DNA from: Mycolicibacterium smegmatis
GTDB lineage: Bacteria > Actinomycetota > Actinomycetes > Mycobacteriales > Mycobacteriaceae
NCBI RefSeq assembly: GCF_001457595.1
Contig: NZ_LN831039.1
Coordinates: 600,001-632,000, forward strand
DNA: 32,000 nt
Direction of reading: 5' to 3'
The number at the start of each line of letters is the position of its first letter. Position 1 is the stretch's first letter. The notes below the pieces were generated by a model, which was not told where the DNA came from, did not search any database, and was given only the letters and a program-made list of their open reading frames with translations. Positions 19,394 through 31,782 of the stretch are shown here, piece after piece. A program made the position numbers and the translations under genes.

Positions 19394-20149
19394 ATGGCAC
19401 TCATACCCATGCCGCATGTGGACGTCGCCGACGAGCAGGTCGCTGCCGTGCTGAGCCGGGCGGTCGGACCGATCGGCCTGATCCTCGACGCGATCGCCGA
19501 CCTGGACCCGCTGGGGCTGCGGCGCCGGACGCACTACCTCGGCGAGGGCGACGGCGTCGTCGGCACCGTGCTCGACCGGATCGCCTGCGTGCTCGACTGC
19601 GCCGACATCCCGGGCACCAGGTCGTGGGAGGGCAAGGACCGTGCCGAGCGGATCGGCTGGTGGGTGCACCGGGTCGGCGCGCTGGACACCGTCATCGTGG
19701 CGTTCCCGGGGGTGTTCGGGGTGGTCGCCGATCGGCTACCGCTGCAGGACCTGCTCGGGTTCACCAACCAGGCTCTCGTGCTGTGTGCGGTCGCCCGCGA
19801 GTGCGGTGTGACAGACCATGACACGCAGGTCCGGATGCTCGCGGCGGTGCTGTGCGGCCGCGACCTGACCCAGACGCCGCGGGCGCAGACCGAGGACGAA
19901 CCGGCCGACATGTCGCTCGTGCAGCGGGTGTGGCATCTGGCCGGGATACTCAACGCGATCGGCGACGAGCTGGACAGGCGGCCGCATCCCCGCGCGCCGT
20001 TCCGCTACCTGGGCATGCTTCCGTGGATCGGTGCGGTGGCCGACTATCTCGGCGAGTACGGGGCGTTGGTGCGGGCCGCCGATGCCGGGCAGAAGTGGAT
20101 CGCGCAGCACGGCGCGCCAGCCGACGACCGGGCGCCGCTACGCGTGTGA
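19394..20149 (+). CDS. hypothetical protein (251 aa), function unknown
   Basis: High GC3 throughout with non-repetitive composition, and a hydrophobic central segment (VGALDTVIVAFPGVFGVVADRL). I recognise no motif. The start is uncertain (ATG 19394 or ATG 19409). Confidence 0.6.
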   Translation: MALIPMPHVDVADEQVAAVLSRAVGPIGLILDAIADLDPLGLRRRTHYLGEGDGVVGTVLDRIACVLDCADIPGTRSWEGKDRAERIGWWVHRVGALDTVIVAFPGVFGVVADRLPLQDLLGFTNQALVLCAVARECGVTDHDTQVRMLAAVLCGRDLTQTPRAQTEDEPADMSLVQRVWHLAGILNAIGDELDRRPHPRAPFRYLGMLPWIGAVADYLGEYGALVRAADAGQKWIAQHGAPADDRAPLRV

Positions 20150-21124
20150 CGCGTCCTTGTCGTCTTTCTTCGCGTCCTTCTTCGCGTCCTTCTTGCCGAA
20201 CGGCAACAGATGCATCACGAGGACGACGATCGCGCCCACGACCAGTCCGATTACCGCGGAGATGCCGGTGTTGACCAGCCAGGCGAGCACCGCGCCGGCA
20301 CCCGGCACCGCGTGGTGCACGGCTTCCTCGAGGTGGTGGACGACACCGTAGGGCGAGTGCCAGCCGAGCGTGTCGGTGCCGACCAGCAGGATGTGACCGC
20401 CCACCCACAGCATCGCCACGGTGCCGATCGTGGCCAGCGCCGACAGCAGCTTGGGCATGCCCGCGACGAGGCCGCGGCCGATCTTGCGTGCGATGCGCGA
20501 ACTGCGCTGCGCGAGGTGCAGGCCGATGTCGTCCATCTTCACGATCGCCGCGACCACGCCGTACACGCCCGCGGTGATCACGAACGCCACCACCACCAGG
20601 ATCGCCAGCCGCGGGAGGAAGGCCTCGCTCGCCACCTCGTTGAGCGCGATCACCATGATCTCGGCCGACAGGATGAGGTCGGTGCGAATCGCGCCGGACA
20701 CCACGGATTTCTCGGCGTCGGCGCCGGTCACCGCGCTCGGCGTGGCATGCGGGTCGTGGCCGTGGTGACCGGGGAACCAGCCCCACACCTTTTCGGCGCC
20801 CTCGTAGCAGAGGTAGGTGGCGCCCACCATCAGGATCGGCGTCAGCAGCACGGGGACGAACTGGCTGAGCAGCAAAATCGCCGGGAGGATGAACACGATC
20901 TTGTTGCGGATCGACCCGATTGCGATCTTCTTGATGATCGGCAACTCACGCTCGGCGGTGATGCCGTGCACGTACTGCGGTGTCACCGCGGTGTCGTCGA
21001 TGACCACACCGGCCGCTTTCGCGGTCGCGCGTCCGGCCGCCGCGCCGATGTCGTCGACCGAGGCCGCGGCGAGGCGCGCGAGTGCGGCCACGTCGTCGAG
21101 AAGGCCGAACAGACCGGCGCTCAT
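20138..21124 (-). CDS. DUF808 (YedI-like) inner membrane protein (328 aa)
   Basis: The N-terminus MSAGLFGLLDDVAALARLAAASVDDIGAAAGRATAKAAGVVIDDTAVTPQYV is typical of DUF808, followed by multiple TM segments. Lys/Asp-rich C-terminal tail. Confidence 0.82.
   Translation of the reverse strand: MSAGLFGLLDDVAALARLAAASVDDIGAAAGRATAKAAGVVIDDTAVTPQYVHGITAERELPIIKKIAIGSIRNKIVFILPAILLLSQFVPVLLTPILMVGATYLCYEGAEKVWGWFPGHHGHDPHATPSAVTGADAEKSVVSGAIRTDLILSAEIMVIALNEVASEAFLPRLAILVVVAFVITAGVYGVVAAIVKMDDIGLHLAQRSSRIARKIGRGLVAGMPKLLSALATIGTVAMLWVGGHILLVGTDTLGWHSPYGVVHHLEEAVHHAVPGAGAVLAWLVNTGISAVIGLVVGAIVVLVMHLLPFGKKDAKKDAKKDDKDASHA
20150..20194. repeat. 12-nt tandem repeat encoding the (KKDA)n tail of DUF808
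   Basis: CGCGTCCTTCTT occurs twice perfectly (20171..20182 and 20183..20194), preceded by degenerate copies from 20150. It translates on the minus strand to KKDAKKDAKKDDKD. Confidence 0.8.
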
Positions 21125-21158
21125 CGCGTCATCCCCATGGTGGGAAGGCTACCGGCGT

Positions 21159-22571
21159 TCACATGCCGATGAAGGACTCGATCCACCCGCGCGCGAAGTA
21201 CAGCACGAATCCGAGCGCCACGACCCACAGCAAAGGACTGATCTCGCGGAACTTCCCGGCCGCGGACCGCAGCACCACCCACGCCACGAAGCCGACGCCG
21301 ATGCCGTTGGCAATCGAGTAGCTGAACGCCATGGTCGCCACCGTGAGGACGACCGGCAGGGCCACGGAGAACTCGGAGAGGTCGATGTGGCGCAGATGCG
21401 ACACCATCATGGCGCCGACGACCACGAGCGCGGCCGCGGCCACCTCGGTCGGCACGACCGACGCCAGCGGCGCCACGAACATCGCCGCCAGGAACAGCAC
21501 ACCCGTGATCAGGTTGGCCAGGCCCGTGCGGGCGCCTTCCTCGATGCCCGCACCGGATTCGATGAAGACCGTGTTCGACGATGCCGACGAGGCGCCGCCG
21601 ACGACGGCGCCGGTGCCCTCGACGATCAGCGCCGATTTCAACCGGGGGAACGTGCCCTGCGGGTCGGACAGGCCGGCCTCGCGGGACAGACCCGTCATGG
21701 TGCCCATGGCATCGAAGAAGTTGGCGAAGACCAGGGTGAACACCAGCATGATGGCCGCCAGCGCGCCGATGCGGCTGAAGCTGCCGAGGCTCACCTCGCC
21801 CACCAGTGACAGATCGGGCATGGCGAACGGAGAACCCGACAGCGACGGCACCGAAAGTCCCCAGCCGCCGGGCTTTTCGACGGCCGAGCCGAGGTGCCAG
21901 ATCGCCTCGATCACGACGGCGACGACGGTGCCTGCCACGAGCCCGATCAGGATGCCGCCGCGTACGCGGCGCGCGACAAGGATCCCGGTGACCAGCAGCG
22001 TGAACACGAACACGACGGTCGGCACGGTGTTGATGGAGCCCTCGCCGCCCGCGCCCAGTCCCACCGGCGGCGACGGCAGGCCCGTCGAACCGATGAAGCC
22101 CGCGTCGACCACACCGATGAACAGGATGAACAACCCGATGCCCGCGGTGATCGCGAGCTTGAGCTGCATGGGGACGGCGTCGAAGACCAGGCGTCGCAGC
22201 CCGGTCGCGGCCAGCAGCACGATGATCAGACCGTTGATGACCACCAGGCCCATCGCCTCGGGCCACGTGACGGAGCCGACGACGGTGGTGGCGAGGAACG
22301 AGTTGATGCCGAGGCCCGCGGCGAACGCGAACGGCAATCGCGCGACGAGGCCGAACAGAATCGTCATGACGCCCGCGGCCAGCGACGTGACCGCCGACAC
22401 CTGAGCGAACTCCAGATTGTTGCCGTCCACGTCGGGCGCACTGGAGAGGATGACCGGGTTCAGCACGATGATGTACGCCATCGCGATGAACGTGACGACA
22501 CCACCGCGGATCTCAGCGGTGAGGGTCGACCCGCGCGCCGTGATGTCGAAGAAGCGATCGAGGCGATTCAT
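21159..22571 (-). CDS. NCS2 family purine permease (AzgA/PbuG-like adenine/guanine/hypoxanthine; 470 aa)
   Basis: MNRLDRFFDITARGSTLTAEIRGGVVTFIAMAYIIVLNP is the hallmark N-terminus of AzgA-type permeases, followed by about 13 TM segments. The start is taken at ATG 22571; the ORF-track extension to 22655 overlaps the upstream gene. Confidence 0.9.
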   Translation of the reverse strand: MNRLDRFFDITARGSTLTAEIRGGVVTFIAMAYIIVLNPVILSSAPDVDGNNLEFAQVSAVTSLAAGVMTILFGLVARLPFAFAAGLGINSFLATTVVGSVTWPEAMGLVVINGLIIVLLAATGLRRLVFDAVPMQLKLAITAGIGLFILFIGVVDAGFIGSTGLPSPPVGLGAGGEGSINTVPTVVFVFTLLVTGILVARRVRGGILIGLVAGTVVAVVIEAIWHLGSAVEKPGGWGLSVPSLSGSPFAMPDLSLVGEVSLGSFSRIGALAAIMLVFTLVFANFFDAMGTMTGLSREAGLSDPQGTFPRLKSALIVEGTGAVVGGASSASSNTVFIESGAGIEEGARTGLANLITGVLFLAAMFVAPLASVVPTEVAAAALVVVGAMMVSHLRHIDLSEFSVALPVVLTVATMAFSYSIANGIGVGFVAWVVLRSAAGKFREISPLLWVVALGFVLYFARGWIESFIGM

Positions 22572-22582
22572 AAGTGATGACC

Positions 22583-23680
22583 CTATGGGTGCGGGCCGTC
22601 CTGTGTGCGGAGTGTGCGGTAGAAGTTGACGTGTGTCTTCGCGGCCTGCGTCCACGTCATGGCTGCGGCGAGCGTCCGGCCGGGCGCGGGGTCGGCCGGT
22701 TCTTCCAGCGCCGCAGTCATTTCCCGGGCGAATCCGGCCGGATCGGCCGCGAAGCCGACGGTGTCGCCGAACACCTCGCGCAGCACGGGAAGATCGCGCG
22801 TCACCACTGGGCGCCCGGCCGCCAGCGCCTCCATCGCGGCCAGCCCGAAACCTTCCTTGGTCGAAGGAAACGCGAACACGTCACAACCTGCCACGAGGCC
22901 GGGCAGTTCGTCGTCGGCGACCGCGCCCAGAATCACCGGTTCCACGCCCAGTTCCGTGCAGCGTCGCTCGAACGCGCTGCGGTAGTCGCGGTAGTCGAAC
23001 AACGTCTCGCCGCCGCCGATTACGAGCGACACCTCCGGGTGCCGTTGCCGCAGCATGGCATAGGCCTCGACCAGATCGAGGGTGCCCTTGCGCGGTTCGA
23101 TTCCGCCCACCGTCAGCACATAGGAGCCCAACTCGTCGCGCCAGCGCCGGATCCCGGCCTCCTGGGCCGCGGCGGCGCTGAACCGTTGCGCGTCAACACC
23201 GTTCGGGATGACGACCGGGTCGAACCCCCACCCGGCGCGCACCTCGGCGGCGACCGCCGCGGACACACAGATCCGGGCGTAGGGTTCTGCGATGGCCTTC
23301 TCGTGGCATTCCGCGAGCACCGGAGTCTTGAACTGGTCGAGGTGGTGGATGGTGCGGATGCACGGACCGACCGCGTTGGCGCTGATGCAGTCCTGCGCGT
23401 GGACGATGTCGTAATCGGCCGGGGTGAAGGCGTCGCGCAGGGTCTCGATGGACCGCAGGATCCGGTCGGTGACCGTATCGCCGGGATGGTCGACGAATTC
23501 GACGAGACGGACCGTGACGGCGGGATTGATCTCACGGAAGAAACCGCGGTCGCCGCTGCGTGCCAGAGACCACACGGTCACGTCGACGCCCAGGCGTGCC
23601 ATCGCCTCGGCGAGGTACAGCGTGTGCACCACACCGCCGCGAGGCTTGGTGGAATAGGTCAGCAACGCCACCCGCATCAT
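22583..23680 (-). CDS. GT4-type glycosyltransferase, MSMEG_0565-family-like (365 aa)
   Basis: MMRVALLTYSTKPRGGVVHTLYLAEAM... and the E-x7-E block EGFGLAAMEALAAGRPVV. GGAGG SD, and ATGA overlap with the upstream gene. ORF-track residues upstream of 23680 are a shadow extension. Confidence 0.88.
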   Translation of the reverse strand: MMRVALLTYSTKPRGGVVHTLYLAEAMARLGVDVTVWSLARSGDRGFFREINPAVTVRLVEFVDHPGDTVTDRILRSIETLRDAFTPADYDIVHAQDCISANAVGPCIRTIHHLDQFKTPVLAECHEKAIAEPYARICVSAAVAAEVRAGWGFDPVVIPNGVDAQRFSAAAAQEAGIRRWRDELGSYVLTVGGIEPRKGTLDLVEAYAMLRQRHPEVSLVIGGGETLFDYRDYRSAFERRCTELGVEPVILGAVADDELPGLVAGCDVFAFPSTKEGFGLAAMEALAAGRPVVTRDLPVLREVFGDTVGFAADPAGFAREMTAALEEPADPAPGRTLAAAMTWTQAAKTHVNFYRTLRTQDGPHP

Positions 23681-24525
23681 CGGTCCGCCTCCGACGCTAC
23701 GTGGTAACTGCCCGGACGCAACTCGGTGAGGTGGTTCAAAACTCTTCTGGCACGCGTGATCTCGGCATGAACATCGATCTCGACCTTGGCCAGCCCGCCT
23801 TTGGACCGCGTGGTCGCCAGGATGTCGCCGCCGGGCCCGACCACCTTGGCCTGCCCGAGGAAACGCAGATTCCCCATCACGCCGGTCTGGTTGGACGACA
23901 CCAGCACCACCTGGTTCTCGGCCGCGCGCGCGCAGTCGTAGAGATCGAACAGCCGCGACTGGCGGTCTGCGGGCAGGCGCGAGGCGCGGTCGGTGACGCT
24001 GGCCGGCCACGCGGACAGCGCGGCGATGATGTCGGCGCCGCCCATGGCAAGTGTTCGTGCGGCCTCGGGGAACGTCTTGTCGTAGTCGATGAGCATGCCC
24101 ACGCGGCCGACCGGCGTGTGGAACGTGCTGAAGGTGTCGCCCGCCAGATACGTCAGCGATTCCCCGACCGGTTGGTGCACCTTGCGGTACGTGCCCAAAA
24201 CCCCGTCTCCGCAGACACATACCGCCGCGTTGTACCGTCCCCCGCCCGGCGCGGACTCGGCATAGCCCACGCACACCGTCATCGGCCCCGCGGCCGAGAC
24301 CACGGCCGCGATCTCGGGGCCGTCAAGTGTCAGCGCGGGCGGTGGATCGTCGGGATCGGGCCGGTGGAAGTCGCCGATGTAGCCGCCCAGGCACGCATCG
24401 GGAAACACCAGGAAATCGACTCCGTCACGCGCCGCCGACTCGATGATGCCGACGACCTTGGTCACGCCGCGGTCCAGGTCACGGCCGAAATGCGCCGCGA
24501 CCGCGCCCAGGGTGACCGGTGCCAT
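23677..24525 (-). CDS. carbon-nitrogen hydrolase (nitrilase superfamily) paralogue with a degenerate catalytic triad (282 aa)
   Basis: Clear CN-hydrolase fold (DFLVFPDA, YRKVHQP, GRVGMLIDYDKTFPEAAR). Asp43 replaces the catalytic Glu and Asp147 replaces the catalytic Cys; Lys115 is retained. GAGGAG SD lies in the 9-nt gap upstream. Confidence 0.85.
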   Translation of the reverse strand: MAPVTLGAVAAHFGRDLDRGVTKVVGIIESAARDGVDFLVFPDACLGGYIGDFHRPDPDDPPPALTLDGPEIAAVVSAAGPMTVCVGYAESAPGGGRYNAAVCVCGDGVLGTYRKVHQPVGESLTYLAGDTFSTFHTPVGRVGMLIDYDKTFPEAARTLAMGGADIIAALSAWPASVTDRASRLPADRQSRLFDLYDCARAAENQVVLVSSNQTGVMGNLRFLGQAKVVGPGGDILATTRSKGGLAKVEIDVHAEITRARRVLNHLTELRPGSYHVASEADR

Positions 24526-24534
24526 GCGCTCCTC

Positions 24535-25956
24535 TCACGCCTTCCCGAGACCCGTGACCGGCGACGTCAGCGCCGTCGTCGTCACGCCGTCCGGCCAGCG
24601 TAGGCGCACGCCCGGTTCGGCGGTCAACGACCCGCACTCGGAACTCGCCACACCTGCCGGCACCGCCGCGGATCCCAGCGCGCCGCCCACGGTGAGCATG
24701 CCGAAACCCGGAAAACACGTCAGCCAGGGGGCCATGCCGGCCGACGCGGGTCGCGGGATCGTCGCGACATCCAATTCGGCCCCGGTCCCGCTCGCTTCGG
24801 CCAGCATGCCCACGGTGCCGACGACGCCCGCCATGCTGACATCCTTGGCCGCGCGGGGCGCCATGCGGGCGACCAGACCGGCCATCGACGCCAGTTCCGC
24901 ACTGTTGCGCGATGTTGTCGAATCCCATTGGCGTCCGGTGTATCCCCGACGCCACCGACCGGTGGTGTCGGCGGTCAACCGCACCCGGTCCCCGGCGACG
25001 CCGCCACCCGCGGGTACCGGCGACACGGTGTGGCCCAGTGCGGTGACCGATAACGCGGCGGGCACGCCGAGTTGCGTGTGGCCGCCGAGCACCGGCACAG
25101 CCCACGCCGAGGATGCCGCCGCGATGCCGCCGATGATGCGGTCCAGCACCGCGCGCGTCGGGGCGGCCACTGCGTCGAGCAGTCCCGTCGGCGTCGCCCC
25201 CATGGCCGAGAGGTCGTTGATGTTGACCAGAACCGAGCACCAGCCCGCCCATTCCGGGTCGCGTTCCACCAATGACGGGATGATGGCGTCGCAGGCCGCG
25301 ACCAGGTCGGTGCCGGGAACAGGTGAGCCGTCGTCGCCGACGAATCCGGCCGGTCCCAGTGCGCCGTCGACCGCGCGAAGCGGGTTCAACGCCGCGCCGA
25401 GGAACGATTTGGTGGCCGCGGCGAGCGCATCGAAGGGGTTGATCTGTCGGCGCATCCACACGTGTGGGCGCGCGGCGATCTCGACGTCGCCCAGGGGGTC
25501 CCAGCCGAGCGCGGTGAACATCGGCTGGTATCGACGCTGCACGGTGGCCTCGAACCGGAGCACACCGGCGGATTCGGCGTACGCACATGCGGCGCGGACC
25601 AGCGCCGCCCCGATGCCGGTGATGCGCGTCGACCTGTCGACCACGAGCCGGCTGCCGGTCCACCAGCCCAGGTCGACTCCACCGACGGGTGCCAGACGTA
25701 CCCCGCCCAGGACCGATCCGTCGGCAGCGGCCGCGATCAGCACCACGACGCGCGGGTCATCGTCGATGTCGTCGTGGTCGCTGCCCGAGAACATGCCCTG
25801 GTCGACCACGAACGAATCGCGGCGCAGCCGACGGTAACTCGCGAGGTCGTCGGCGTTCTCGGCCGGGCGGATGAGAAACGGTGCGGTAGGTCGTGATCCG
25901 GCCAAAATGGACAGGTCGCCGGGCAGTGATGGTGTGCTGACGTCGAACTCGATCAT
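24535..25956 (-). CDS. GNAT N-acetyltransferase / PurM-like (AIR-synthase-related) fusion protein, MSMEG_0567/sll0787-family-like (473 aa)
   Basis: The N-terminal GNAT domain has an acyl-CoA motif RITGIGAALV (R-x-x-G-x-G). The C-terminal PurM-superfamily domain has NINDLSAMGATP and GGHTQ blocks. ATG 25956 overlaps the radical SAM stop by 1 nt (TGATG). Confidence 0.85.
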   Translation of the reverse strand: MIEFDVSTPSLPGDLSILAGSRPTAPFLIRPAENADDLASYRRLRRDSFVVDQGMFSGSDHDDIDDDPRVVVLIAAAADGSVLGGVRLAPVGGVDLGWWTGSRLVVDRSTRITGIGAALVRAACAYAESAGVLRFEATVQRRYQPMFTALGWDPLGDVEIAARPHVWMRRQINPFDALAAATKSFLGAALNPLRAVDGALGPAGFVGDDGSPVPGTDLVAACDAIIPSLVERDPEWAGWCSVLVNINDLSAMGATPTGLLDAVAAPTRAVLDRIIGGIAAASSAWAVPVLGGHTQLGVPAALSVTALGHTVSPVPAGGGVAGDRVRLTADTTGRWRRGYTGRQWDSTTSRNSAELASMAGLVARMAPRAAKDVSMAGVVGTVGMLAEASGTGAELDVATIPRPASAGMAPWLTCFPGFGMLTVGGALGSAAVPAGVASSECGSLTAEPGVRLRWPDGVTTTALTSPVTGLGKA

Positions 25957-27011
25957 CAGGCCCCCAGATTCTGCAGCACCGAGCAGGCGCCGCAGGCCGC
26001 GCACCCGGCCCGCTGATCGGCGCCTGACATTCCGGCCTGCCGCAGCAGGTCGGCGACGGCGCGTGACACCTTTTCGACCAGCCCGGAGTCCGGCGCGATC
26101 GCCCCATCGACGTCGGTGGCCAGCGAGCCGGACTGCGGACGGAACGGCACCACGAACGGATAGACACCCATGTCGATGAGTTCGCCGGCACCCGCGACGA
26201 GCTCATCGGGGTTCTCACCGAGCCCCACCAGCAGATACGTCGACACCTGGTTGCGGCCGAACACGCGCACCGCCTCACGCCACGCGGCCCGGTAGGCATC
26301 CAGCGCGACCGTGGCCTTACCCGGCATCCACCGGCTTCGCACCTCGTCATCGAGTGACTCCACGTGGATCCCGATGGCATCGGCCCCGGCCGCACGCAGT
26401 TCGGACAGCACGGCGAGGTCGGCGGGCGGTTCGCACTGGACCTGAATCGGCAGCGCAGGCACCGCGGCCTTCACGGCTCGCACGCAGCGCGCCAGATGCC
26501 GTGCCCCGCGGTCGGTTCCGGCCGACGTGCCGGTGGTCATGACCATCTGTGTCACACCGTCGAGGCGTACCGCGGCAGCGGCGACCTCGGCGAGTTCGGC
26601 GGGCCGCTTGACGGCCGTGGTGGCACCGGACCGCAGGGATTCCTCGATGGTGCAGAACCGGCAGCGCTGATCGGGGGAGTAGCGGATACACGTCTGCACG
26701 ACGGTGGTGGCCAGTACGTTGCGGCCGTGCAGACGTGCGAGTTTCTCGTAGGGGACGCCGTCGCCGGTCGTGAGGTCATAGAAGCGGGGCCGGTCGATGA
26801 CCTCGACGTCCAGTCCGGTGTCCTCGCCGTCGAGCAGCACGCGTGTGCCGTCGAAGACGAACGGGCTGAGCGGGTTACGCGGGATCGCGGCGTTGAGGCC
26901 GTCGATGACGAGGTGGCCGTCGGCGCTGGGGCCCGCGCCGGCGTTCCGGTGCACCGGGGGCCGGCCGCGGAAACCCAGGAGCGCGAGGTCGACTCGTGTG
27001 GACACTGTCAT
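25956..27011 (-). CDS. radical SAM protein, MSMEG_0568-family-like (351 aa)
   Basis: Cys triad C108-x8-C117-x2-C120 (CIRYSPDQRCRFC) ahead of a TIM-barrel-like region (MVMTTGTSAG, GIHVESLD). C-terminal C337-x2-C340-x2-C343. Confidence 0.82.
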   Translation of the reverse strand: MTVSTRVDLALLGFRGRPPVHRNAGAGPSADGHLVIDGLNAAIPRNPLSPFVFDGTRVLLDGEDTGLDVEVIDRPRFYDLTTGDGVPYEKLARLHGRNVLATTVVQTCIRYSPDQRCRFCTIEESLRSGATTAVKRPAELAEVAAAAVRLDGVTQMVMTTGTSAGTDRGARHLARCVRAVKAAVPALPIQVQCEPPADLAVLSELRAAGADAIGIHVESLDDEVRSRWMPGKATVALDAYRAAWREAVRVFGRNQVSTYLLVGLGENPDELVAGAGELIDMGVYPFVVPFRPQSGSLATDVDGAIAPDSGLVEKVSRAVADLLRQAGMSGADQRAGCAACGACSVLQNLGA

Positions 27012-27018
27012 GGCATAC

Positions 27019-28290
27019 CTACACCTTCATGGCGAGCCGCAAAACCGACTCGTGGTAGCTGCTGATGATCGTCGCGGCGATGTGCCGGGCATCGCGGTCG
27101 ATGCCGAGGAAGCGGCCGGATCCCCAGGTGTGCATCCACGGCAGCCCGACGAAGCTCAGGCCGGCGACATTGGTGATCCCGCGGGTCTGCATCGGCCGGC
27201 CCGCGCCGTCGAAGGCGCTGGCCGCTATCCACCGGTAATCCGGCCGGTAGCCGATCGCCCACACGATGCTGGTGATCCCGGCCGCAGCGAGATCCAGTGT
27301 GGTGGTCTCGGTTTCGGGCTTCCATACCGGTTCGTACCGTGAGGCAGGTGGTGCGTCGATCCCGTTGCGCTCGATGTGGGCATCGATGTCCGAACAGATC
27401 GAGTTGTAGACCGAATCGGCGTGATCCAGCGCTTCGGCCAGCGTGGGTTCGAACCGCAGCGTCGAGTCCTTCCCGTCTGCGAGCGTGCCGTAGAGCCTCA
27501 TCCCTTCGGTCGCGAACTGGCGCAGGTCCACATCGCGTCCACCGTCTCGTCCGGTGACGTAGTGGTTGGTCTTCTCGATCGCGGCCTGGCCTCCCGGATA
27601 CTGCTGGGCGGGCCGGTCGTACACGCCCATGTCGGCAAGCCAGGTCATGCAGTCCCTGCCACGGTAGAACCGCGCCACGCGTGGCGCGCCGCCCACCGCG
27701 AGGTGGACCCGGCGTCCGGCCAGGTGCAGGTCCTCGGCGATCTGGGCGCCGGACTGTCCGGTGCCGACCACCAACACGGCCCCGTCGGGCAGTGTGCCTG
27801 CGTTGCGGTACTGCTCCGAGTGGATCTGGAGGATGGTCTCGTCGAGTTGGGCGGCATACGACGGGATGACAGGCACGGGGTATCCGCCGGTCGCGATGAC
27901 GGCGTGGTCACACGTGAGCGTCGACTGACCGGATTCGTCCCGCAGGGTCACCTCGAAGCCGCCACCGGCGCGGTTCTGCAACCGGGTGACCTGGGTGTGG
28001 TTGCGCAGCGGCGGGTCGAAGGTGTCGAGCCAACCGGCCAGCCAGTCGACGACCTCGTCACGGGTCATGAAGCCGTCGGGGTCGGGTCCGGCATACGGGT
28101 AGCCGGGGAGCCTACAGTGCCAGTTCGGGGTGACGAGAGTGAAGTTGTCCCAGCGGGTGTCGGCCCACGCGTGCATCGGGGTCTTCGATTCGATCACGAT
28201 GTGCTCGATGCCTGCCCGCACCAGGTACCAGCTGACCGACAGGCCGGCCTGCCCACCGCCGATGACGGCCACGGGGACGTGGGTGGTCAT
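27019..28290 (-). CDS. FAD/NAD(P)-binding flavoprotein (class B monooxygenase-like), MSMEG_0569-family-like (423 aa)
   Basis: Two dinucleotide-binding motifs, VAVIGGGQAG (N-terminal) and LVVGTGQSGAQIAEDL (central). The ATG at 28290 is in an ATGA overlap with the preceding gene. ORF-track residues upstream are a shadow. Confidence 0.86.
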   Translation of the reverse strand: MTTHVPVAVIGGGQAGLSVSWYLVRAGIEHIVIESKTPMHAWADTRWDNFTLVTPNWHCRLPGYPYAGPDPDGFMTRDEVVDWLAGWLDTFDPPLRNHTQVTRLQNRAGGGFEVTLRDESGQSTLTCDHAVIATGGYPVPVIPSYAAQLDETILQIHSEQYRNAGTLPDGAVLVVGTGQSGAQIAEDLHLAGRRVHLAVGGAPRVARFYRGRDCMTWLADMGVYDRPAQQYPGGQAAIEKTNHYVTGRDGGRDVDLRQFATEGMRLYGTLADGKDSTLRFEPTLAEALDHADSVYNSICSDIDAHIERNGIDAPPASRYEPVWKPETETTTLDLAAAGITSIVWAIGYRPDYRWIAASAFDGAGRPMQTRGITNVAGLSFVGLPWMHTWGSGRFLGIDRDARHIAATIISSYHESVLRLAMKV

Positions 28291-28583
28291 GACGGCCCCG
28301 GTTCGGGGTGCATGGCGACGACCTCGAGCACCGCATCCCCGCTGAACCGCCGGGCGACGTTGACGATGCGCTGACGGGTCTCTGCCGCCGAGGTGCAGGC
28401 GAAGCCGTACTTGGCGCGTACCCGCTCGCTCGCCTCGGCCAGTGCTCGGCTCGAGCGCTCCACGAAATCGTCGACGGCGTAATGCGTTCCCGCGGTCAGA
28501 TGGTCGTGGATCACCAGGCTCGGGGAATAGCAACGCTGGGTGCTGCCGTCCGGCCACCGGACTTCGAAGGTCATCTCAGGCAT
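28287..28583 (-). CDS. small conserved protein, MSMEG_0570-family-like (98 aa)
   Basis: Compact high-GC3 ORF wedged between the nitrilase and flavoprotein genes with overlapping junctions. The start is ATG 28583 (8-nt overlap) or ATG 28574. Confidence 0.75.
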   Translation of the reverse strand: MPEMTFEVRWPDGSTQRCYSPSLVIHDHLTAGTHYAVDDFVERSSRALAEASERVRAKYGFACTSAAETRQRIVNVARRFSGDAVLEVVAMHPEPGPS

Positions 28584-29478
28584 GGGCGAGTTCCCGCCAC
28601 TTCGCGGTGCGCGGACCGTCGGAGTCGGTCAAAGGTGCGTAGACGTCGGGTCGGCGGTCGCGCAGATGGAACATCCCGGCCCGCATGGTGCGGAACGTCT
28701 CGTCGATGTCGACCTCGGCGACCGCCATACCGCTGTCGAGAAGAGTTGTGGCCAAGACGTTTCCACCCGGATCGACCACCTTGGCGTTGCCGACGTATCG
28801 CAATGAGCCGAAGCTCCCGCTCTGGTTGGACGCGACCCAGAACACCTGGTTGTCCAGTGCGCGGGCCATGTCGAACAGATTGAACCGGTAGGTCCAGCGG
28901 TCATCCTGGAGGTTCTGGGCTGTGGCGGTGCGGGCGGCCGGCCACGCCGACAGACTGGCGATGATCTGCGCGCCACCGAGTGCCATCAGCCGGGCGGCTT
29001 CCGGAAAGGCCTTGTCGTAGCAGATCTGCAGCCCGACCCGTCCGACCGGTGTGTCGAAGACCCCGTAGTCCGAGCCCGCCGAATACGACATGCCCTCGCC
29101 GAGTGGCTGGTGCACCTTGCGGTAGCTGCCGTAGACGTCGAATCCGTCGAGCACCGCGGCGGCGTTGTACCGCGTCTCGCCGTCGTCGGCCAGTTCGCAG
29201 AAGCCGATCGCGACCACGAGGTCACCGACGATCTGCTGGACCCGGGCGATCTCCGGGCCGTCGAGGCGGATGGCGGGCGGAAGCGACCGGCTCGTGGCCC
29301 GCACGGTGTCTCCGTGATTGCCCAGTGACGAGAGGTAGCCGCCGATGGCGGCTTCCGGAAGTACCAGGAAGTCGACGCCTTTCTCGCGGGCCTGCTCTGC
29401 CAGATCGGCGATGAGCGCGAAATTCTGTTCCAGGTCGCGGGTGAAGTTCGCCGAAACGGCGGCGAGTGTGGTCATCAT
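28576..29478 (-). CDS. nitrilase-superfamily enzyme with intact Glu-Lys-Cys triad (Nit1C / sll0784-type; 300 aa)
   Basis: DFLVLPEAA (Glu42), YRKVHQP (Lys121) and GLQICYDKAFPE (Cys153, second Glu). Confidence 0.9.
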   Translation of the reverse strand: MMTTLAAVSANFTRDLEQNFALIADLAEQAREKGVDFLVLPEAAIGGYLSSLGNHGDTVRATSRSLPPAIRLDGPEIARVQQIVGDLVVAIGFCELADDGETRYNAAAVLDGFDVYGSYRKVHQPLGEGMSYSAGSDYGVFDTPVGRVGLQICYDKAFPEAARLMALGGAQIIASLSAWPAARTATAQNLQDDRWTYRFNLFDMARALDNQVFWVASNQSGSFGSLRYVGNAKVVDPGGNVLATTLLDSGMAVAEVDIDETFRTMRAGMFHLRDRRPDVYAPLTDSDGPRTAKWRELAHA

Positions 29479-29487
29479 GGCGCGGCC

Positions 29488-30009
29488 TCAAACCATGTAG
29501 GTGGAGTTGATGATGGCGCCTTTGCGGGCGTAGTAGATGAGCGCGTCCTGGACGTCCAGCGGGTGCGCCGGAATGACGCCCTCGATGAGGTCTTCTTCGC
29601 GTCCGCCGTGCAGGCCGAGCCCGAACCGGCAGCAGAACACCGTGCCGCCCTCCTTGATGAAGGTGGCCAGCGCGTCGTTGATGTTCTGTTCACCCGGGAA
29701 ACCGGAGTCTCCGGTCTTCGGAAATCCGCGTGTGGCAAGGCAGTTGATCGATCCCGGCCCGTAGAAGTAGATGGCCGATTCGAACCCCTTGCGCAGCGCG
29801 CGGGTGGCCTGCAGCACGGCGACGAATGCGACCGACGACTCATGCGCGATGCCGTGCACCAGCGTGAAATAGCTTTCGCCGTCCTCGGCCTGGTAGTCGG
29901 GGAAGATCTTGGTACCGCCATATATGCTGGAGCCCTTCGGCAGCGCCGGATGCGGGATCTCGGCCAGCGAACTCTTGATGTTCTCGGTGATGGATTCGTC
30001 GAACGGCAT
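29488..30009 (-). CDS. MSMEG_0572/Sll0783-family-like (nitrogen starvation response) protein (173 aa)
   Basis: First gene of the operon. GGAGAG SD lies before ATG 30009. The 45-codon upstream extension in the ORF track (to 30144) runs into lower-GC regulatory DNA, so the start is not fully certain. Confidence 0.8.
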   Translation of the reverse strand: MPFDESITENIKSSLAEIPHPALPKGSSIYGGTKIFPDYQAEDGESYFTLVHGIAHESSVAFVAVLQATRALRKGFESAIYFYGPGSINCLATRGFPKTGDSGFPGEQNINDALATFIKEGGTVFCCRFGLGLHGGREEDLIEGVIPAHPLDVQDALIYYARKGAIINSTYMV

Positions 30010-30095
30010 GGGTCTCTCCAGGGAGGCGATGAGGGTGCGGGCGGCGACAGTGCCGGGAGCCGGATGATCGGCTGGGTCAATTACAGGCCCCGGCC

Positions 30096-30153
30096 ATTGC
30101 CGTGTGGTTAGGGATGGACTACTTCTGAATTGCCGAAATCTCACAGCGGCAAT
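30096..30153. promoter_or_regulatory. ATTGCCG repeat set in the Nit1C-operon upstream region
   Basis: ATTGCCG occurs at 30096..30102 and 30129..30135, with its inverted copy CGGCAAT at 30147..30153. The last two form a 7-bp stem with an 11-nt spacer. Confidence 0.35.
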
Positions 30154-30280: not shown

Positions 30281-30366
30281 TGGGGACCTGGATCGGCACG
30301 CAGTAACTTTCGTGGTGTTCCTGGATGAAAGAGTTCACACCGCATCGACAATGGCAGGAGCGGGTC

Positions 30367-30978
30367 ATGGCAGTGACCGCTGAGGCACAAGTGACCGACC
30401 ACGGCAGCAGCGCCGAGAGGTTCGAACGCGACGCACTGCCGCTGCTGGACCAGCTCTACGGCGTCGCGCGCCGGTACACGCGCAATCAGGCCGACGCCGA
30501 GGACCTGGTGCAGGAGACGATGGTCAAGGCGTACGGCAGTTTTCACACGTATCGCGACGGCACCAACATCAGGGCATGGCTGTTCAAGATCCTCACGAAC
30601 ACGTGGATCAACGCCTACCACACCGCCCAGCGACGACCAGATGTCGTGGTCACCGACACGATCAGTGACGCGCAACTGGCCGCGGTCGCGACGCGGTCGG
30701 AGACCGAACTGGCCTCGGCCGAGTTGGCGGCGCTGGAGTCCATGGGGGATTCAGAGGTGCGCGACGCGGTCGCGGCGCTGCCGGAACATCAGCGGATGGC
30801 CGTGTACTACGCCGACGTGGTCGGCATGCGGTACCAGGAGATCGCCGATGTGCTGGGTGTCCCCGTGGGAACCGTCATGTCCCGGTTGCACCGTGGGCGC
30901 AGGCGTCTGCGCGAACACCTCATCGGGTTCGCTTACCAGAGTGGCTATCTCGCCCGCCCGGCGGGCAGCGCAGCCTGA
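30367..30978 (+). CDS. ECF RNA polymerase sigma factor, SigH-like paralogue (203 aa)
   Basis: Region 2 [40 protein letters not shown] and region 4 [49 protein letters not shown] lies 7 nt before ATG 30367. Confidence 0.9.
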
Positions 30979-31541
30979 TGGTCGGCGAGTAGAACGCGCA
31001 ACCTGGCACGTCCGCGTGCCAGCCGTGACATGACCGTGCCGATGGGAGTGTCCATCAGCGTGGCGATTTCGCGGTAGGGGTAGCCCTCGACGTCGGCGTA
31101 GTAGACCACCATCCGGTTGGCCTGGGGGATCGCGCGCAGCGCTTCCAGGACCGCGTCGTCGGGAAGGTGTGCGAGAGCTTCGTTCTCGGCTGAACGTGCA
31201 CCGTCTGCCCCGTGGCGCAGACCGGCCGAGAGTTGTGCGTCGGTGAAATCCTCACACAACTGCTCGACCGGATTGCGCTGCTGGGCACGGAAATTGGATA
31301 TCCACGTGTTACGCATGATGCGGAAGAGCCATGCCTGCATGTTGGTCCCGCCCTCGAAGGTGTGAAAACCGTTGTACGCCTTGAGGAGTGTTTCCTGCAC
31401 CAGATCCTCGGCGTCGTAGCGGTTGGTCGTCAGGCGGCGTGCGCCGCGCTCGATCGCCTCGACGAACGGCAGTGCTGTCGCGATGAACTCGGTGGCGTCG
31501 CGTGCCGACGCGGCCGAGGAGTGGACGTTGTCGATGCGCAC
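30945..31541 (-). CDS. ECF RNA polymerase sigma factor, SigH-like paralogue (198 aa)
   Basis: Region 2 [40 protein letters not shown] and region 4 [43 protein letters not shown] prefer GTG 31541 (GGGAGG SD 5 nt upstream) over the ORF-track GTG 31547, which abuts the SD. Confidence 0.88.
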
Positions 31542-31782
31542 GGGCACCTCCCAGATGTATAGACAGACTATGTATAGAAAAATAGTCGATTGCTCGGCGG
31601 CGCGTCCAATCGCCCGAAATCGCCGACGGCCGAGTTAATTTCAGCATGTACGCAGGGACCTCACAGGAAATATCCCTGCGCTGCACCTGGTTGTGTGCGT
31701 GTGTAAAGTTGCTCCACGCTGTACATAGGTAAACGAACTAATTCGCCAGGTGTGACTGGGTGCCGGGGTCGGGAGGTCTTGG

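What the first reader, a model, noticed from the sequence alone, without database searches (positions are those of the whole stretch)
23677..24525. Second nitrilase-superfamily gene in the operon has lost the catalytic Cys and Glu (Asp-Lys-Asp instead of Glu-Lys-Cys)
SEEN: the two CN-hydrolase paralogues align unambiguously.
- Nucleophile block: the active copy (28576..29478) reads TPVGRVGLQICYDKAFPEAAR. This copy reads TPVGRVGMLIDYDKTFPEAAR, so Cys153 is replaced by Asp147. I checked the codon: GAC on the minus strand at 24085..24087.
- Catalytic Glu block: DFLVLPEAA in the active copy against DFLVFPDAC here, so Glu is replaced by Asp43.
- The Lys block YRKVHQP is identical in both.

ESTABLISHED: all characterised nitrilase-superfamily reactions proceed through a thioimidate or thioester on the conserved Cys.

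INFERENCE: this protein cannot be a conventional nitrilase or amidase. It could be a pseudoenzyme subunit, since nitrilases act as homo-oligomeric spirals and a hetero-oligomer with the active paralogue is plausible. It could be a binding or carrier protein for the pathway intermediate. It could also carry different chemistry using a carboxylate.
Basis: partly seen in the sequence, partly recalled or inferred. Interest (0 to 1): 0.7.

Follow-up and report, generated by a model that had tools for sequence, protein, structure and literature searches.

The report
Conserved dead nitrilase-fold paralogue beside glycosyltransferase
This gene encodes a nitrilase-superfamily protein whose catalytic cysteine was replaced by aspartate long ago and has been kept that way by selection across Actinomycetota, always just upstream of a glycosyltransferase in a nitrogen-starvation gene cluster, so it is not the "amidase" the literature calls it.

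Summary
Window 23677-24525 (-) encodes a 282-aa CN_hydrolase protein, 49% identical to the operon's active copy (28576-29478). It reads Asp43/Lys115/Glu122/Asp147 where the active copy reads Glu/Lys/Glu/Cys.

This is neither a sequencing error nor decay:
- Asp147 is invariant in 120/120 close homologues and in 81/81 genome orthologues, with synonymous GAC/GAT variation. It is present in 118/121 more distant homologues.
- dN/dS is about 0.22, no higher than for the active copy (0.28).
- An AlphaFold model (pLDDT 93) keeps the fold and puts Asp147 on the nucleophile elbow.

Position 43 is not fixed (Asp, Gly, His, Tyr, Ala), so "Asp-Lys-Asp" is not a conserved triad. Lys-Glu-Asp is.

The operon is the actinobacterial Nit1C-like "gpr" cluster (MSMEG_0565-0572), and this gene is the positional orthologue of MSMEG_0566. 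It sits directly upstream of the MSMEG_0565-family glycosyltransferase in 79/80 genomes, usually with overlapping stop and start codons, whatever the order of the other genes. It shows no specific co-variation with the active paralogue. Proteobacterial clusters have the glycosyltransferase but no such gene.

Best reading: a non-hydrolytic, ligand-binding pseudoenzyme working with the glycosyltransferase. New carboxylate chemistry is not excluded.

The parts
23677..24525 (-). Gene for the Cys-less CN_hydrolase paralogue (282 aa), positional orthologue of MSMEG_0566
   Evidence: ORF and translation. Pfam PF00795 E = 2.8e-30. No NCBIfam model reaches its cut-off. AF2 model pLDDT 93.1 with nitrilase-superfamily fold.
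24085..24087 (-). Codon GAC = Asp147, at the position of the nucleophile Cys
   Evidence: Sequence read. Aligned to Cys153 of the paralogue and Cys146 of PH0642. It is the first residue of helix 147-151, after strand 140-146, in the model. Invariant in 120/120 and 81/81 sequences.
24397..24399 (-). Codon GAT = Asp43, at the position of the first catalytic Glu; variable in orthologues
   Evidence: Sequence read. Orthologues: Asp 77, His 3, Tyr 1. Wider set: Asp 97, Gly 18, His 2, Ala 1, plus 3 outliers.
24181..24183 (-). Codon AAG = Lys115, catalytic Lys retained
   Evidence: Present in 81/81 orthologues.
24160..24162 (-). Codon GAA = Glu122, second catalytic Glu retained
   Evidence: Present in 81/81 orthologues.
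23677..23680 (-). ATGA: the stop codon of the Cys-less gene overlaps the start codon of the glycosyltransferase gene
   Evidence: Sequence cgATGAtgcgg. The same 4-nt overlap is the commonest junction in other genomes (29-30 of 79); 73 of 79 junctions lie between -19 and +6 nt.
22583..23680 (-). MSMEG_0565-family GT4 glycosyltransferase, invariant downstream neighbour
   Evidence: NCBIfam TIGR04047, 461.9 bits against a cut-off of 259.85. Pfam Glycos_transf_1 and Glyco_transf_4. Adjacent in 79/80 loci.
24535..26004 (-). Fused GNAT + AIR-synthase-like protein (MSMEG_0567 family); start codon uncertain
   Evidence: NCBIfam TIGR04050 (519.6 bits) and TIGR04045 (94.5 bits).
25956..27011 (-). MSMEG_0568-family radical SAM protein
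   Evidence: NCBIfam TIGR04043, 523.6 bits.
27019..28302 (-). MSMEG_0569-family flavin-dependent oxidoreductase. The mechanical ORF runs up to 28557, but the family match starts at residue 95 of that ORF.
   Evidence: NCBIfam TIGR04046, 645.7 bits.
28287..28583 (-). MSMEG_0570-family small protein
   Evidence: NCBIfam TIGR04042, 133.3 bits.
28576..29478 (-). Catalytically complete CN_hydrolase paralogue (Glu42/Lys121/Glu128/Cys153); amidase-like, not a Nit6803-type nitrilase
   Evidence: TIGR04048 scores 30 bits against a cut-off of 502. Glu/Lys/Glu/Cys in 74/74 orthologues.
29488..30144 (-). MSMEG_0572/Sll0783-family (DsrE-like) protein, first gene of the operon. The family match covers residues 61-218 of the mechanical ORF.
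   Evidence: NCBIfam TIGR04044, 258.7 bits.

Best explanation
The gene encodes a pseudoenzyme: a nitrilase-superfamily protein that can no longer hydrolyse C-N bonds through the Cys thioester route but is kept for another job.

Origin. It arose by one duplication of the amidase-like CN hydrolase of the actinobacterial Nit1C-like / gpr cluster (MSMEG_0565-0572). The nucleophile Cys became Asp, and the first catalytic Glu was released from constraint.

What was kept. The fold, the four active-site loops, Lys115 and Glu122 are unchanged.

Most likely function. It still binds the same kind of small molecule as its active paralogue (an amide- or carbamoyl-type pathway intermediate, or its product) without cleaving it. 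It works with the MSMEG_0565-family GT4 glycosyltransferase, whose gene it always precedes and whose translation is coupled to its own. It may hold or present the acceptor for glycosylation, or shield it from hydrolysis.

Shown: loss of Cys and Glu; deep conservation of Asp147, Lys115 and Glu122; purifying selection; intact fold; invariant synteny with the glycosyltransferase; restriction to Actinomycetota among the clusters examined.

Inferred: ligand binding, lack of catalysis, and the glycosyltransferase as functional partner.
For: 1. Catalytic residues. The tetrad is Asp/Lys/Glu/Asp against Glu/Lys/Glu/Cys in the paralogue and in PH0642.

2. Conservation. Asp147 is present in 120/120 homologues, in 81/81 genome orthologues with synonymous codons, and in 118/121 more distant homologues. 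Lys115 and Glu122 are present in 81/81.

3. Selection. Median Nei-Gojobori dN/dS is 0.22, against 0.28 for the active copy, 0.26 for the glycosyltransferase and 0.20 for the radical SAM gene, over 1070 genome pairs. Mean pairwise protein distance is 0.25, against 0.32 for the active copy.

4. Structure. The AF2 model has pLDDT 93.1 and pTM 0.92, with Asp147 at the strand-helix elbow. Foldseek top hits are PH0642 amidase, N-carbamoylputrescine amidase and Nit2, with TM about 0.8.

5. Pocket. Every active-site loop motif is identical in the 196 Cys-less and 74 active sequences (P42, G47 G48 Y49, R114-H117, P119, G121, E122, Y148 D149 K150 F152 P153 E154, S171-P174, N212, G215). Only six positions are fixed differently in the two clades; Asp147/Cys is one of them.

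6. Synteny. The gene lies directly upstream of the glycosyltransferase in 79/80 genome loci, in two different orders of the other genes. The same holds in Microlunatus, in Streptomyces and an unnamed metagenome contig, and on a Rhodococcus plasmid. The stop/start junction is between -19 and +6 nt in 73/79 loci, and ATGA in the window.

7. Copies outside the cluster. The three copies looked up that lie outside the cluster have no glycosyltransferase beside them. Two of them (P0128, P0132) have also lost Lys and Glu2, so those residues are constrained only in the cluster context. The third, P0125, keeps the full Asp/Lys/Glu/Asp set.

8. Phylogeny. An NJ tree shows one Cys-less clade, sister to the cluster's active clade, with shorter branches.

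9. Expression. According to the literature, the M. smegmatis gene is transcribed and induced under nitrogen limitation: 8.9-fold (PMC4222082) and 3.0-fold (PMC4617892). All eight ORFs are expressed (PMC6039565).
Against: - No biochemical data exist. Inactivity is inferred from the mechanism established for the superfamily, not measured.
- Strict conservation of Lys115, Glu122 and Asp147 would fit a working catalytic site as well as a binding site.
- The glycosyltransferase works without such a partner in the four proteobacterial clusters examined, so the partnership is not intrinsic to that glycosyltransferase family.
- Tight gene junctions are common throughout this operon, so overlap alone is not specific.
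- The mirror-tree partial correlation with the glycosyltransferase is only 0.28. It is no higher than with the radical SAM gene (0.39) or the GNAT/AIRS gene (0.43).
- One orthologue, on a short MAG contig (L070), has no glycosyltransferase next to it.
- Asp147 could be conserved simply as a good helix N-cap at the elbow.
- No atomic coordinates were available, so the pocket could not be inspected.
Confidence: 0.45

Rival explanations
1. It is a real enzyme with changed chemistry. A Lys115-Glu122-Asp147 site in the nitrilase fold uses the carboxylate as nucleophile or general base on a different electrophile. Candidates are an ester, an activated acyl or carbamoyl group, an epoxide- or halide-like carbon, or a step on the glycosylated product. 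The parallel is alpha/beta-hydrolases, which swap Ser/Cys for Asp in dehalogenases and epoxide hydrolases (own knowledge).
For: - Lys115, Glu122 and Asp147 are invariant in every in-cluster orthologue. Lys and Glu2 drift in two of the three copies looked up that have left the cluster.
- All the pocket loops are as conserved as in the active paralogue.
- Purifying selection is as strong as on the active enzymes of the operon.
- A carboxylate nucleophile needs no general base, which would explain why position 43 is free to vary.
Against: - Neither the literature searches nor my own knowledge turned up a nitrilase-superfamily member with a non-Cys nucleophile.
- An anhydride intermediate formed from an amide is chemically unfavourable.
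- Asp at a helix N-terminus can be purely structural.
- No candidate substrate is known, because the product of the cluster is unknown.
Confidence: 0.25
2. It is a prozyme-like subunit. The dead paralogue forms a heterodimer or hetero-oligomer with the active CN hydrolase (28576-29478) and activates, stabilises or retunes it.
For: - The two proteins are 49% identical paralogues.
- They co-occur in every locus with enough flanking sequence.
- Their genes are directly adjacent in Streptomyces and Cryptosporangium.
- CN hydrolases are obligate dimers (own knowledge).
- Four of the six clade-specific fixed differences lie in helix 188-204 and the C-terminal helices (Q189/W, L192/R, L263/M, E268/D). 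These could be interface elements.
Against: - The gene is positioned with the glycosyltransferase, not with the active copy. The active copy instead travels as a CN-0570-flavoprotein block.
- The pairwise-distance partial correlation with the active copy is -0.17, whereas the active copy and the flavoprotein give 0.83. The active clade has a deep split between the two gene orders that the Cys-less clade lacks.
- These proteins are not spiral-forming branch-1 nitrilases.
Confidence: 0.15
3. It is a decaying pseudogene, or the substitutions are sequencing errors.
For: None beyond the missing catalytic residues.
Against: - The ORF is intact, with a good ribosome-binding site (gaggag, 5 nt upstream).
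- Asp147 is invariant in more than 300 sequences from many genera, with synonymous variation.
- dN/dS is 0.22.
- The fold is predicted with high confidence.
Confidence: 0.01

Closest known systems
Small amidase-type members of the nitrilase superfamily: Pyrococcus horikoshii PH0642 amidase (1j31, 6ypa), P. abyssi nitrilase (3ivz), plant N-carbamoylputrescine amidase (5h8i-l), Nit2 (2w1v)
   Same: Same alpha-beta-beta-alpha fold (TM about 0.8, Foldseek E about 1e-22). Same length class. Same positions for Lys, the second Glu and the nucleophile elbow.
   Different: Cys is replaced by Asp and the first Glu by Asp/Gly/His. Sequence identity is 21-26%. There is an insertion of about 11 residues before helix 188-204. 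No activity is expected through the thioester route.
The active CN hydrolase of the same operon (window 28576-29478; MSMEG_0571 position)
   Same: 49% identical, with identical active-site loop motifs. Same operon, and sister clades in the tree.
   Different: It has Glu/Lys/Glu/Cys in 74/74 orthologues. It travels with MSMEG_0570 and the flavoprotein, not with the glycosyltransferase. It evolves faster.
Nit1C cluster (Podar et al. 2005, PMC1199592) and its nitrilase NitC/Nit6803; M. smegmatis gpr operon MSMEG_0565-0572 (Yang et al. 2018, PMC6039565)
   Same: The neighbours belong to the same NCBIfam families (0565, 0567, 0568, 0569, 0570, 0572). According to the literature the cluster is induced by nitrogen starvation.
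   Different: Proteobacterial clusters carry one Nit6803-type nitrilase, separate GNAT and AIRS genes, often a Pnap_2097 protein, and no second CN hydrolase. The actinobacterial cluster has an amidase-like hydrolase instead, plus this Cys-less copy.
Dead-paralogue pseudoenzymes such as trypanosomatid AdoMetDC prozyme and deoxyhypusine synthase (PMC5201418, PMC3663545, listed)
   Same: A paralogue that lacks catalytic residues, is kept under selection, and is encoded alongside the active enzyme.
   Different: Here there is no evidence for a complex with the active paralogue. Gene order points to a different partner, the glycosyltransferase.

Membership tests
Nitrilase superfamily (CN_hydrolase, PF00795) | Sequence match to the family profile and the alpha-beta-beta-alpha sandwich fold | tested here: met
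   Pfam E = 2.8e-30, 105.9 bits against a cut-off of 23.2. AF2 model pLDDT 93.1. Foldseek matches to solved members, TM about 0.8.
Nitrilase superfamily (CN_hydrolase, PF00795) | Catalytic Glu-Lys-Cys triad plus second Glu | tested here: not met
   The protein has Asp43, Lys115, Glu122 and Asp147. The elbow Cys is absent in all orthologues.
Nit6803-family nitrilase of Nit1C (TIGR04048) | Score above the curated cut-off of the equivalog model | tested here: not met
   28.3 bits against a cut-off of 502.6. The active paralogue also fails, at 30.3 bits.
Aliphatic amidase (the name used for MSMEG_0566 in PMC4222082, PMC4617892 and PMC6039565) | Match to the aliphatic amidase model, and the Cys nucleophile | tested here: not met
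   NF009802 scores 21.1 bits against a cut-off of 427. There is no Cys at the elbow.
N-carbamoylputrescine amidase (TIGR03381) / archaeal nitrilase (NF040852) | Score above the curated cut-off | tested here: not met
   67.7 bits against 410 for TIGR03381, and 84 bits against 500 for NF040852.
MSMEG_0565-0572 / Nit1C-like nitrogen-starvation cluster | Neighbouring genes belong to the cluster's curated families, in a conserved operon | tested here: met
   TIGR04047, 04050/04045, 04043, 04046, 04042 and 04044 all score above their cut-offs. The same gene set is found in 80 actinobacterial loci.
Pseudoenzyme | Homologue of an enzyme family that lacks essential catalytic residues yet is under purifying selection | tested here: met
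Pseudoenzyme | Demonstrated absence of the ancestral activity | not testable with these tools
   Needs an enzyme assay of the purified protein.
Prozyme-type heteromer with the active paralogue | Physical complex with the active copy, and co-evolution with it | tested here: inconclusive
   The mirror-tree partial correlation is -0.17 and gene order favours the glycosyltransferase. No complex prediction or experiment was possible.

The most novel reading that the evidence does not exclude
The Lys115-Glu122-Asp147 site is catalytic. This would be the first nitrilase-fold enzyme with a carboxylate in place of the Cys nucleophile. It would carry out a non-thioester reaction on the unknown metabolite made by the nitrogen-starvation (Nit1C/gpr) cluster, immediately before or after its glycosylation.
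Probability: 0.2. Interest if true: 0.85.

Novelty: new variant of a known kind. Interest (0 to 1): 0.55.

Why it matters
- **Annotation.** The gene is annotated, and discussed in nitrogen-metabolism papers, as an "aliphatic amidase" or "nitrilase" that scavenges nitrogen. That cannot be right by the superfamily's known mechanism.
- **The superfamily.** In the papers searched I found no description of a deeply conserved Cys-less clade in the nitrilase superfamily. This one would be either a clean example of a bacterial pseudoenzyme or the seed of a new chemistry in this fold.
- **The cluster.** It gives a concrete handle on the Nit1C/gpr cluster. That cluster is widespread, induced by nitrogen starvation and linked to peroxide resistance, and its product is unknown. 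The invariant pairing of the Cys-less protein with the glycosyltransferase suggests a glycosylation step that, in Actinomycetota, needs a dedicated binding partner.

Tried and rejected
1. **Sequencing error or decay.** Rejected by conservation and dN/dS.
2. **Another Cys serving as nucleophile.** Cys45 is not conserved; it is Ala in most of the wider clade. Cys85 and Cys103 are conserved, but they lie on core strands 83-91 and 97-105, away from the elbow in sequence and secondary structure. No coordinates were available to measure distances.
3. **A natural fusion as evidence of interaction.** P0123 (669 aa) looked like a fusion of the Cys-less protein and the glycosyltransferase. It is a frameshift-riddled assembly artefact.
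4. **Pnap_2097 as a distant homologue.** The Pnap_2097 protein of proteobacterial clusters is about 280 aa. It shows no similarity to this protein and only weak hot-dog-fold hints.
5. **Literature.** Searches for a described nitrilase-superfamily pseudoenzyme, or for the product of the cluster, found nothing relevant.
6. **Divergent copies.** The copies with Ala-Gln-x-Asp (P0128, P0132) and the deep-branching copy P0125 lie outside the cluster on short contigs. They say little about the cluster's function.
7. **Not done.** The M. smegmatis MSMEG_0566 sequence itself was not retrieved; orthology rests on position and on the neighbouring families. GlnR-box scanning upstream of 30144 was not attempted.
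Full report
**The observation**

Window 23677-24525 (-) is an intact 282-codon ORF. It is preceded by a gaggag ribosome-binding site. It matches Pfam CN_hydrolase at E = 2.8e-30 and is 49% identical (E = 1e-90) to the second CN_hydrolase gene of the operon, 28576-29478 (-).

The codons, read directly, are:
- GAT (24399-24397) for Asp43
- AAG (24183-24181) for Lys115
- GAA (24162-24160) for Glu122
- GAC (24087-24085) for Asp147

The paralogue has Glu42, Lys121, Glu128 and Cys153 at the matching positions.

An independent anchor agrees. In the HMMER alignment to Pyrococcus horikoshii PH0642 (1j31), Asp147 falls on Cys146. In the C146A variants (6ypa, 7ovg) it falls on the engineered Ala.

**Error, decay or selection**

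- All 120 nearest 90%-identity cluster representatives (78-98% identity; Mycolicibacterium, Mycobacterium, Gordonia) read Asp/Lys/Glu/Asp.
- In 80 species-level genomes plus the window, Asp147 is present in 81/81, with both codons used (GAC 77, GAT 4). Lys115 and Glu122 are present in 81/81. Position 43 is Asp 77, His 3, Tyr 1. The active paralogue is Glu/Lys/Glu/Cys in 74/74.
- In 121 more distant homologues (Amycolatopsis, Streptomyces, Actinomadura, Microlunatus and others) the pattern is Asp-Lys-Glu-Asp 97, Gly-Lys-Glu-Asp 18, His-Lys-Glu-Asp 2 and Ala-Lys-Glu-Asp 1, plus three outliers.
- Median pairwise dN/dS over 1070 genome pairs is 0.22 for this gene. It is 0.28 for the active copy, 0.26 for the glycosyltransferase, 0.20 for the radical SAM gene and 0.09 for the 0572 gene. 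dS is close to saturation, so only the comparison between genes is meaningful.

The replacement is therefore old and maintained by selection. The protein evolves slightly more slowly than its active paralogue. Position 43 is free to vary, while Lys115, Glu122 and Asp147 are the fixed set.

**Structure**

An AlphaFold2 model built on 61 sequences has mean pLDDT 93.1 and pTM 0.92. Asp147 is the first residue of helix 147-151, straight after strand 140-146. That is the classical nucleophile elbow.

Foldseek finds PH0642 amidase, N-carbamoylputrescine amidase, P. abyssi nitrilase and Nit2 at TM about 0.8. No Cys is available at the elbow. Cys45 is not conserved. I could not obtain coordinates, so I did not inspect pocket geometry.

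Comparing 196 Cys-less with 74 active sequences:
- All active-site loop motifs are identical in both clades.
- Only six positions are fixed differently: D147/C, Q189/W, L192/R, L223/V, L263/M and E268/D.

The pocket has been kept, the nucleophile has not.

**Context**

NCBIfam places the neighbours in these families, all above cut-off:
- MSMEG_0565 (GT4 glycosyltransferase)
- MSMEG_0567 (fused GNAT and AIR-synthase-like)
- MSMEG_0568 (radical SAM)
- MSMEG_0569 (flavoprotein)
- MSMEG_0570
- MSMEG_0572/Sll0783

This is the actinobacterial form of the Nit1C cluster (PMC1199592). In M. smegmatis it is called the GlnR-dependent peroxide-resistance (gpr) operon (PMC6039565). The gene studied here is the positional orthologue of MSMEG_0566.

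Neither CN hydrolase is a Nit6803-type nitrilase (28 and 30 bits against a cut-off of 502). Their nearest relatives are small amidases.

**Gene order across genomes**

The other genes occur in at least two orders:
- 0572, CN, 0570, flavoprotein, rSAM, GNAT/AIRS in Mycolicibacterium and Gordonia.
- 0572, rSAM, GNAT/AIRS, CN, 0570, flavoprotein in Rhodococcus, Nocardia, Nocardioides and Microlunatus.

The Cys-less gene lies immediately upstream of the glycosyltransferase in 79 of the 80 loci. The pair lies at the downstream end of the cluster in every locus tabulated. The same holds in Microlunatus (the Gly43 type), in Streptomyces and an unnamed His43-type metagenome contig, and on a Rhodococcus linear plasmid.

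In the window the stop and start codons overlap as ATGA. In 73/79 loci the junction lies between -19 and +6 nt. The only exception to the pairing is a short MAG contig.

The four proteobacterial plasmid clusters examined have the glycosyltransferase but no second CN hydrolase. They are from Burkholderia, Agrobacterium, Acetobacter and Methylocystis.

The three copies looked up that lie outside the cluster have no glycosyltransferase beside them. Two of them, P0128 and P0132, have also lost Lys and Glu2. The third, P0125, keeps the full Asp/Lys/Glu/Asp set.

**Which partner**

- An NJ tree shows a single Cys-less clade, sister to the cluster's active clade.
- Pairwise-distance (mirror-tree) analysis shows the active copy co-varying strongly with the flavoprotein (r = 0.93, partial 0.83).
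- The Cys-less copy has a partial correlation of -0.17 with the active copy. Its partial correlations are 0.28 with the glycosyltransferase, 0.39 with the radical SAM gene and 0.43 with GNAT/AIRS.

These numbers are descriptive, because the sequences are not phylogenetically independent. They give no support to an obligate heteromer with the active paralogue. An apparent natural fusion of the Cys-less protein and the glycosyltransferase (P0123) is an assembly artefact.

**Mechanism**

What is shown:
- The protein cannot form the thioimidate or thioester. This follows from the established mechanism of the superfamily together with the missing Cys.
- It is nevertheless under purifying selection.
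- The pocket, Lys and second Glu are preserved.
- It is genetically tied to the glycosyltransferase.

My best inference (about 0.45) is a non-hydrolytic ligand-binding subunit. It would recognise the same class of molecule as the active amidase-like enzyme and act with the glycosyltransferase. With Asp43, Glu122 and Asp147 against Lys115 the pocket would be more acidic than in the active copy. This is an inference from residue charges and was not computed. It might favour a cationic group such as an amine or amidine.

Rivals:
- **A true enzyme using the carboxylate (about 0.25).** The invariant Lys-Glu-Asp set fits this well. I found no precedent for it in this superfamily.
- **A prozyme-like heteromer with the active copy (about 0.15).**
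- **Decay or error (about 0.01).**

These estimates do not add up to 1; the remainder covers explanations I have not thought of.

Asp147 might also be kept simply because Asp is a good helix N-cap. That would fit any non-catalytic reading.

**Comparison with what is known, and novelty**

The gene is known and expressed. It is induced 8.9-fold and 3.0-fold under nitrogen limitation. It is called an "aliphatic amidase" that could contribute to nitrogen assimilation. The aliphatic-amidase model scores only 21 bits against a cut-off of 427, and the nucleophile is absent.

PGAP names it only "carbon-nitrogen hydrolase family protein", and no NCBIfam model is specific to it. Full-text searches found no description of a Cys-less nitrilase-superfamily clade, nor of the cluster's product.

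I rate it a new variant of a known kind: a conserved pseudoenzyme, or possibly an enzyme with altered chemistry, within the nitrilase superfamily. Interest is moderate, at 0.55.

Noticed in passing
window 27019-29478 (-); loci L001-L080: The active CN hydrolase gene ends in TGA, and its reading frame stays open through the MSMEG_0570 region into the flavoprotein ORF. In 70 genomes the flavoprotein is in the same frame as the CN gene in 61, and the CN stop is the only stop between them in 30. The CN stop is TGA in 69/70. This echoes the speculative Sec read-through fusion proposed for MSMEG_0571-0569 in PMC6039565. NTGA start/stop overlaps and high GC content could also explain it.
   Followed up: partly
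window 24271-24273 and 24217-24219 (-), i.e. Cys85 and Cys103 of the 282-aa protein: A pair of cysteines is at least 95% conserved in the Cys-less clade but under 60% conserved in the active clade. They lie on neighbouring antiparallel strands 83-91 and 97-105 of the model. They could be a cross-strand pair. Any redox or metal role is unknown.
   Followed up: no
window 28576-29478 (-) compared with L085, L086 and L093: The actinobacterial cluster does not contain the Nit6803-type nitrilase that defines Nit1C in Proteobacteria. An amidase-like CN hydrolase occupies its place (30 bits against a cut-off of 502). GNAT and the AIRS-like protein are fused. The Pnap_2097 protein present in three of the four proteobacterial clusters examined is missing.
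   Followed up: partly
L001-L080: The cluster behaves as modules: [0572], [rSAM-GNAT/AIRS], [CN-0570-flavoprotein] and [Cys-less CN-glycosyltransferase]. The CN-0570-flavoprotein block moves as a unit between two positions and shows a deep sequence split between the two arrangements (55-60% against 78-89% identity to the window). The other genes lack this split.
   Followed up: partly
L087 (Rhodococcus qingshengii N9T-4 linear plasmid pN9T4-1): The whole eight-gene cluster, including the Cys-less gene, sits on a 565-kb linear plasmid next to an IS256 transposase. The proteobacterial versions are also often plasmid-borne. The cluster is therefore mobile.
   Followed up: no
P0126 and P0138: Two divergent homologues carry Tyr and Gly at position 147. 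These are the two possible single-nucleotide intermediates between Cys (TGY) and Asp (GAY).
   Followed up: no
window 20138-22655 (-) and 30325-31547: Downstream of the operon lie a xanthine/uracil-family permease (21159-22655) and a DUF808 membrane protein (20138-21124). Upstream lie two convergent ORFs, overlapping at their 3' ends, that look by eye like ECF-type sigma factors (30325-30978 on +, 30945-31547 on -). These were not scanned against profiles.
   Followed up: no
window 25956-26004 (-): The mechanical ORFs of the radical SAM gene and the GNAT/AIRS gene overlap by 49 nt. The GNAT/AIRS family match starts at residue 43, so the true start is probably further downstream.
   Followed up: no
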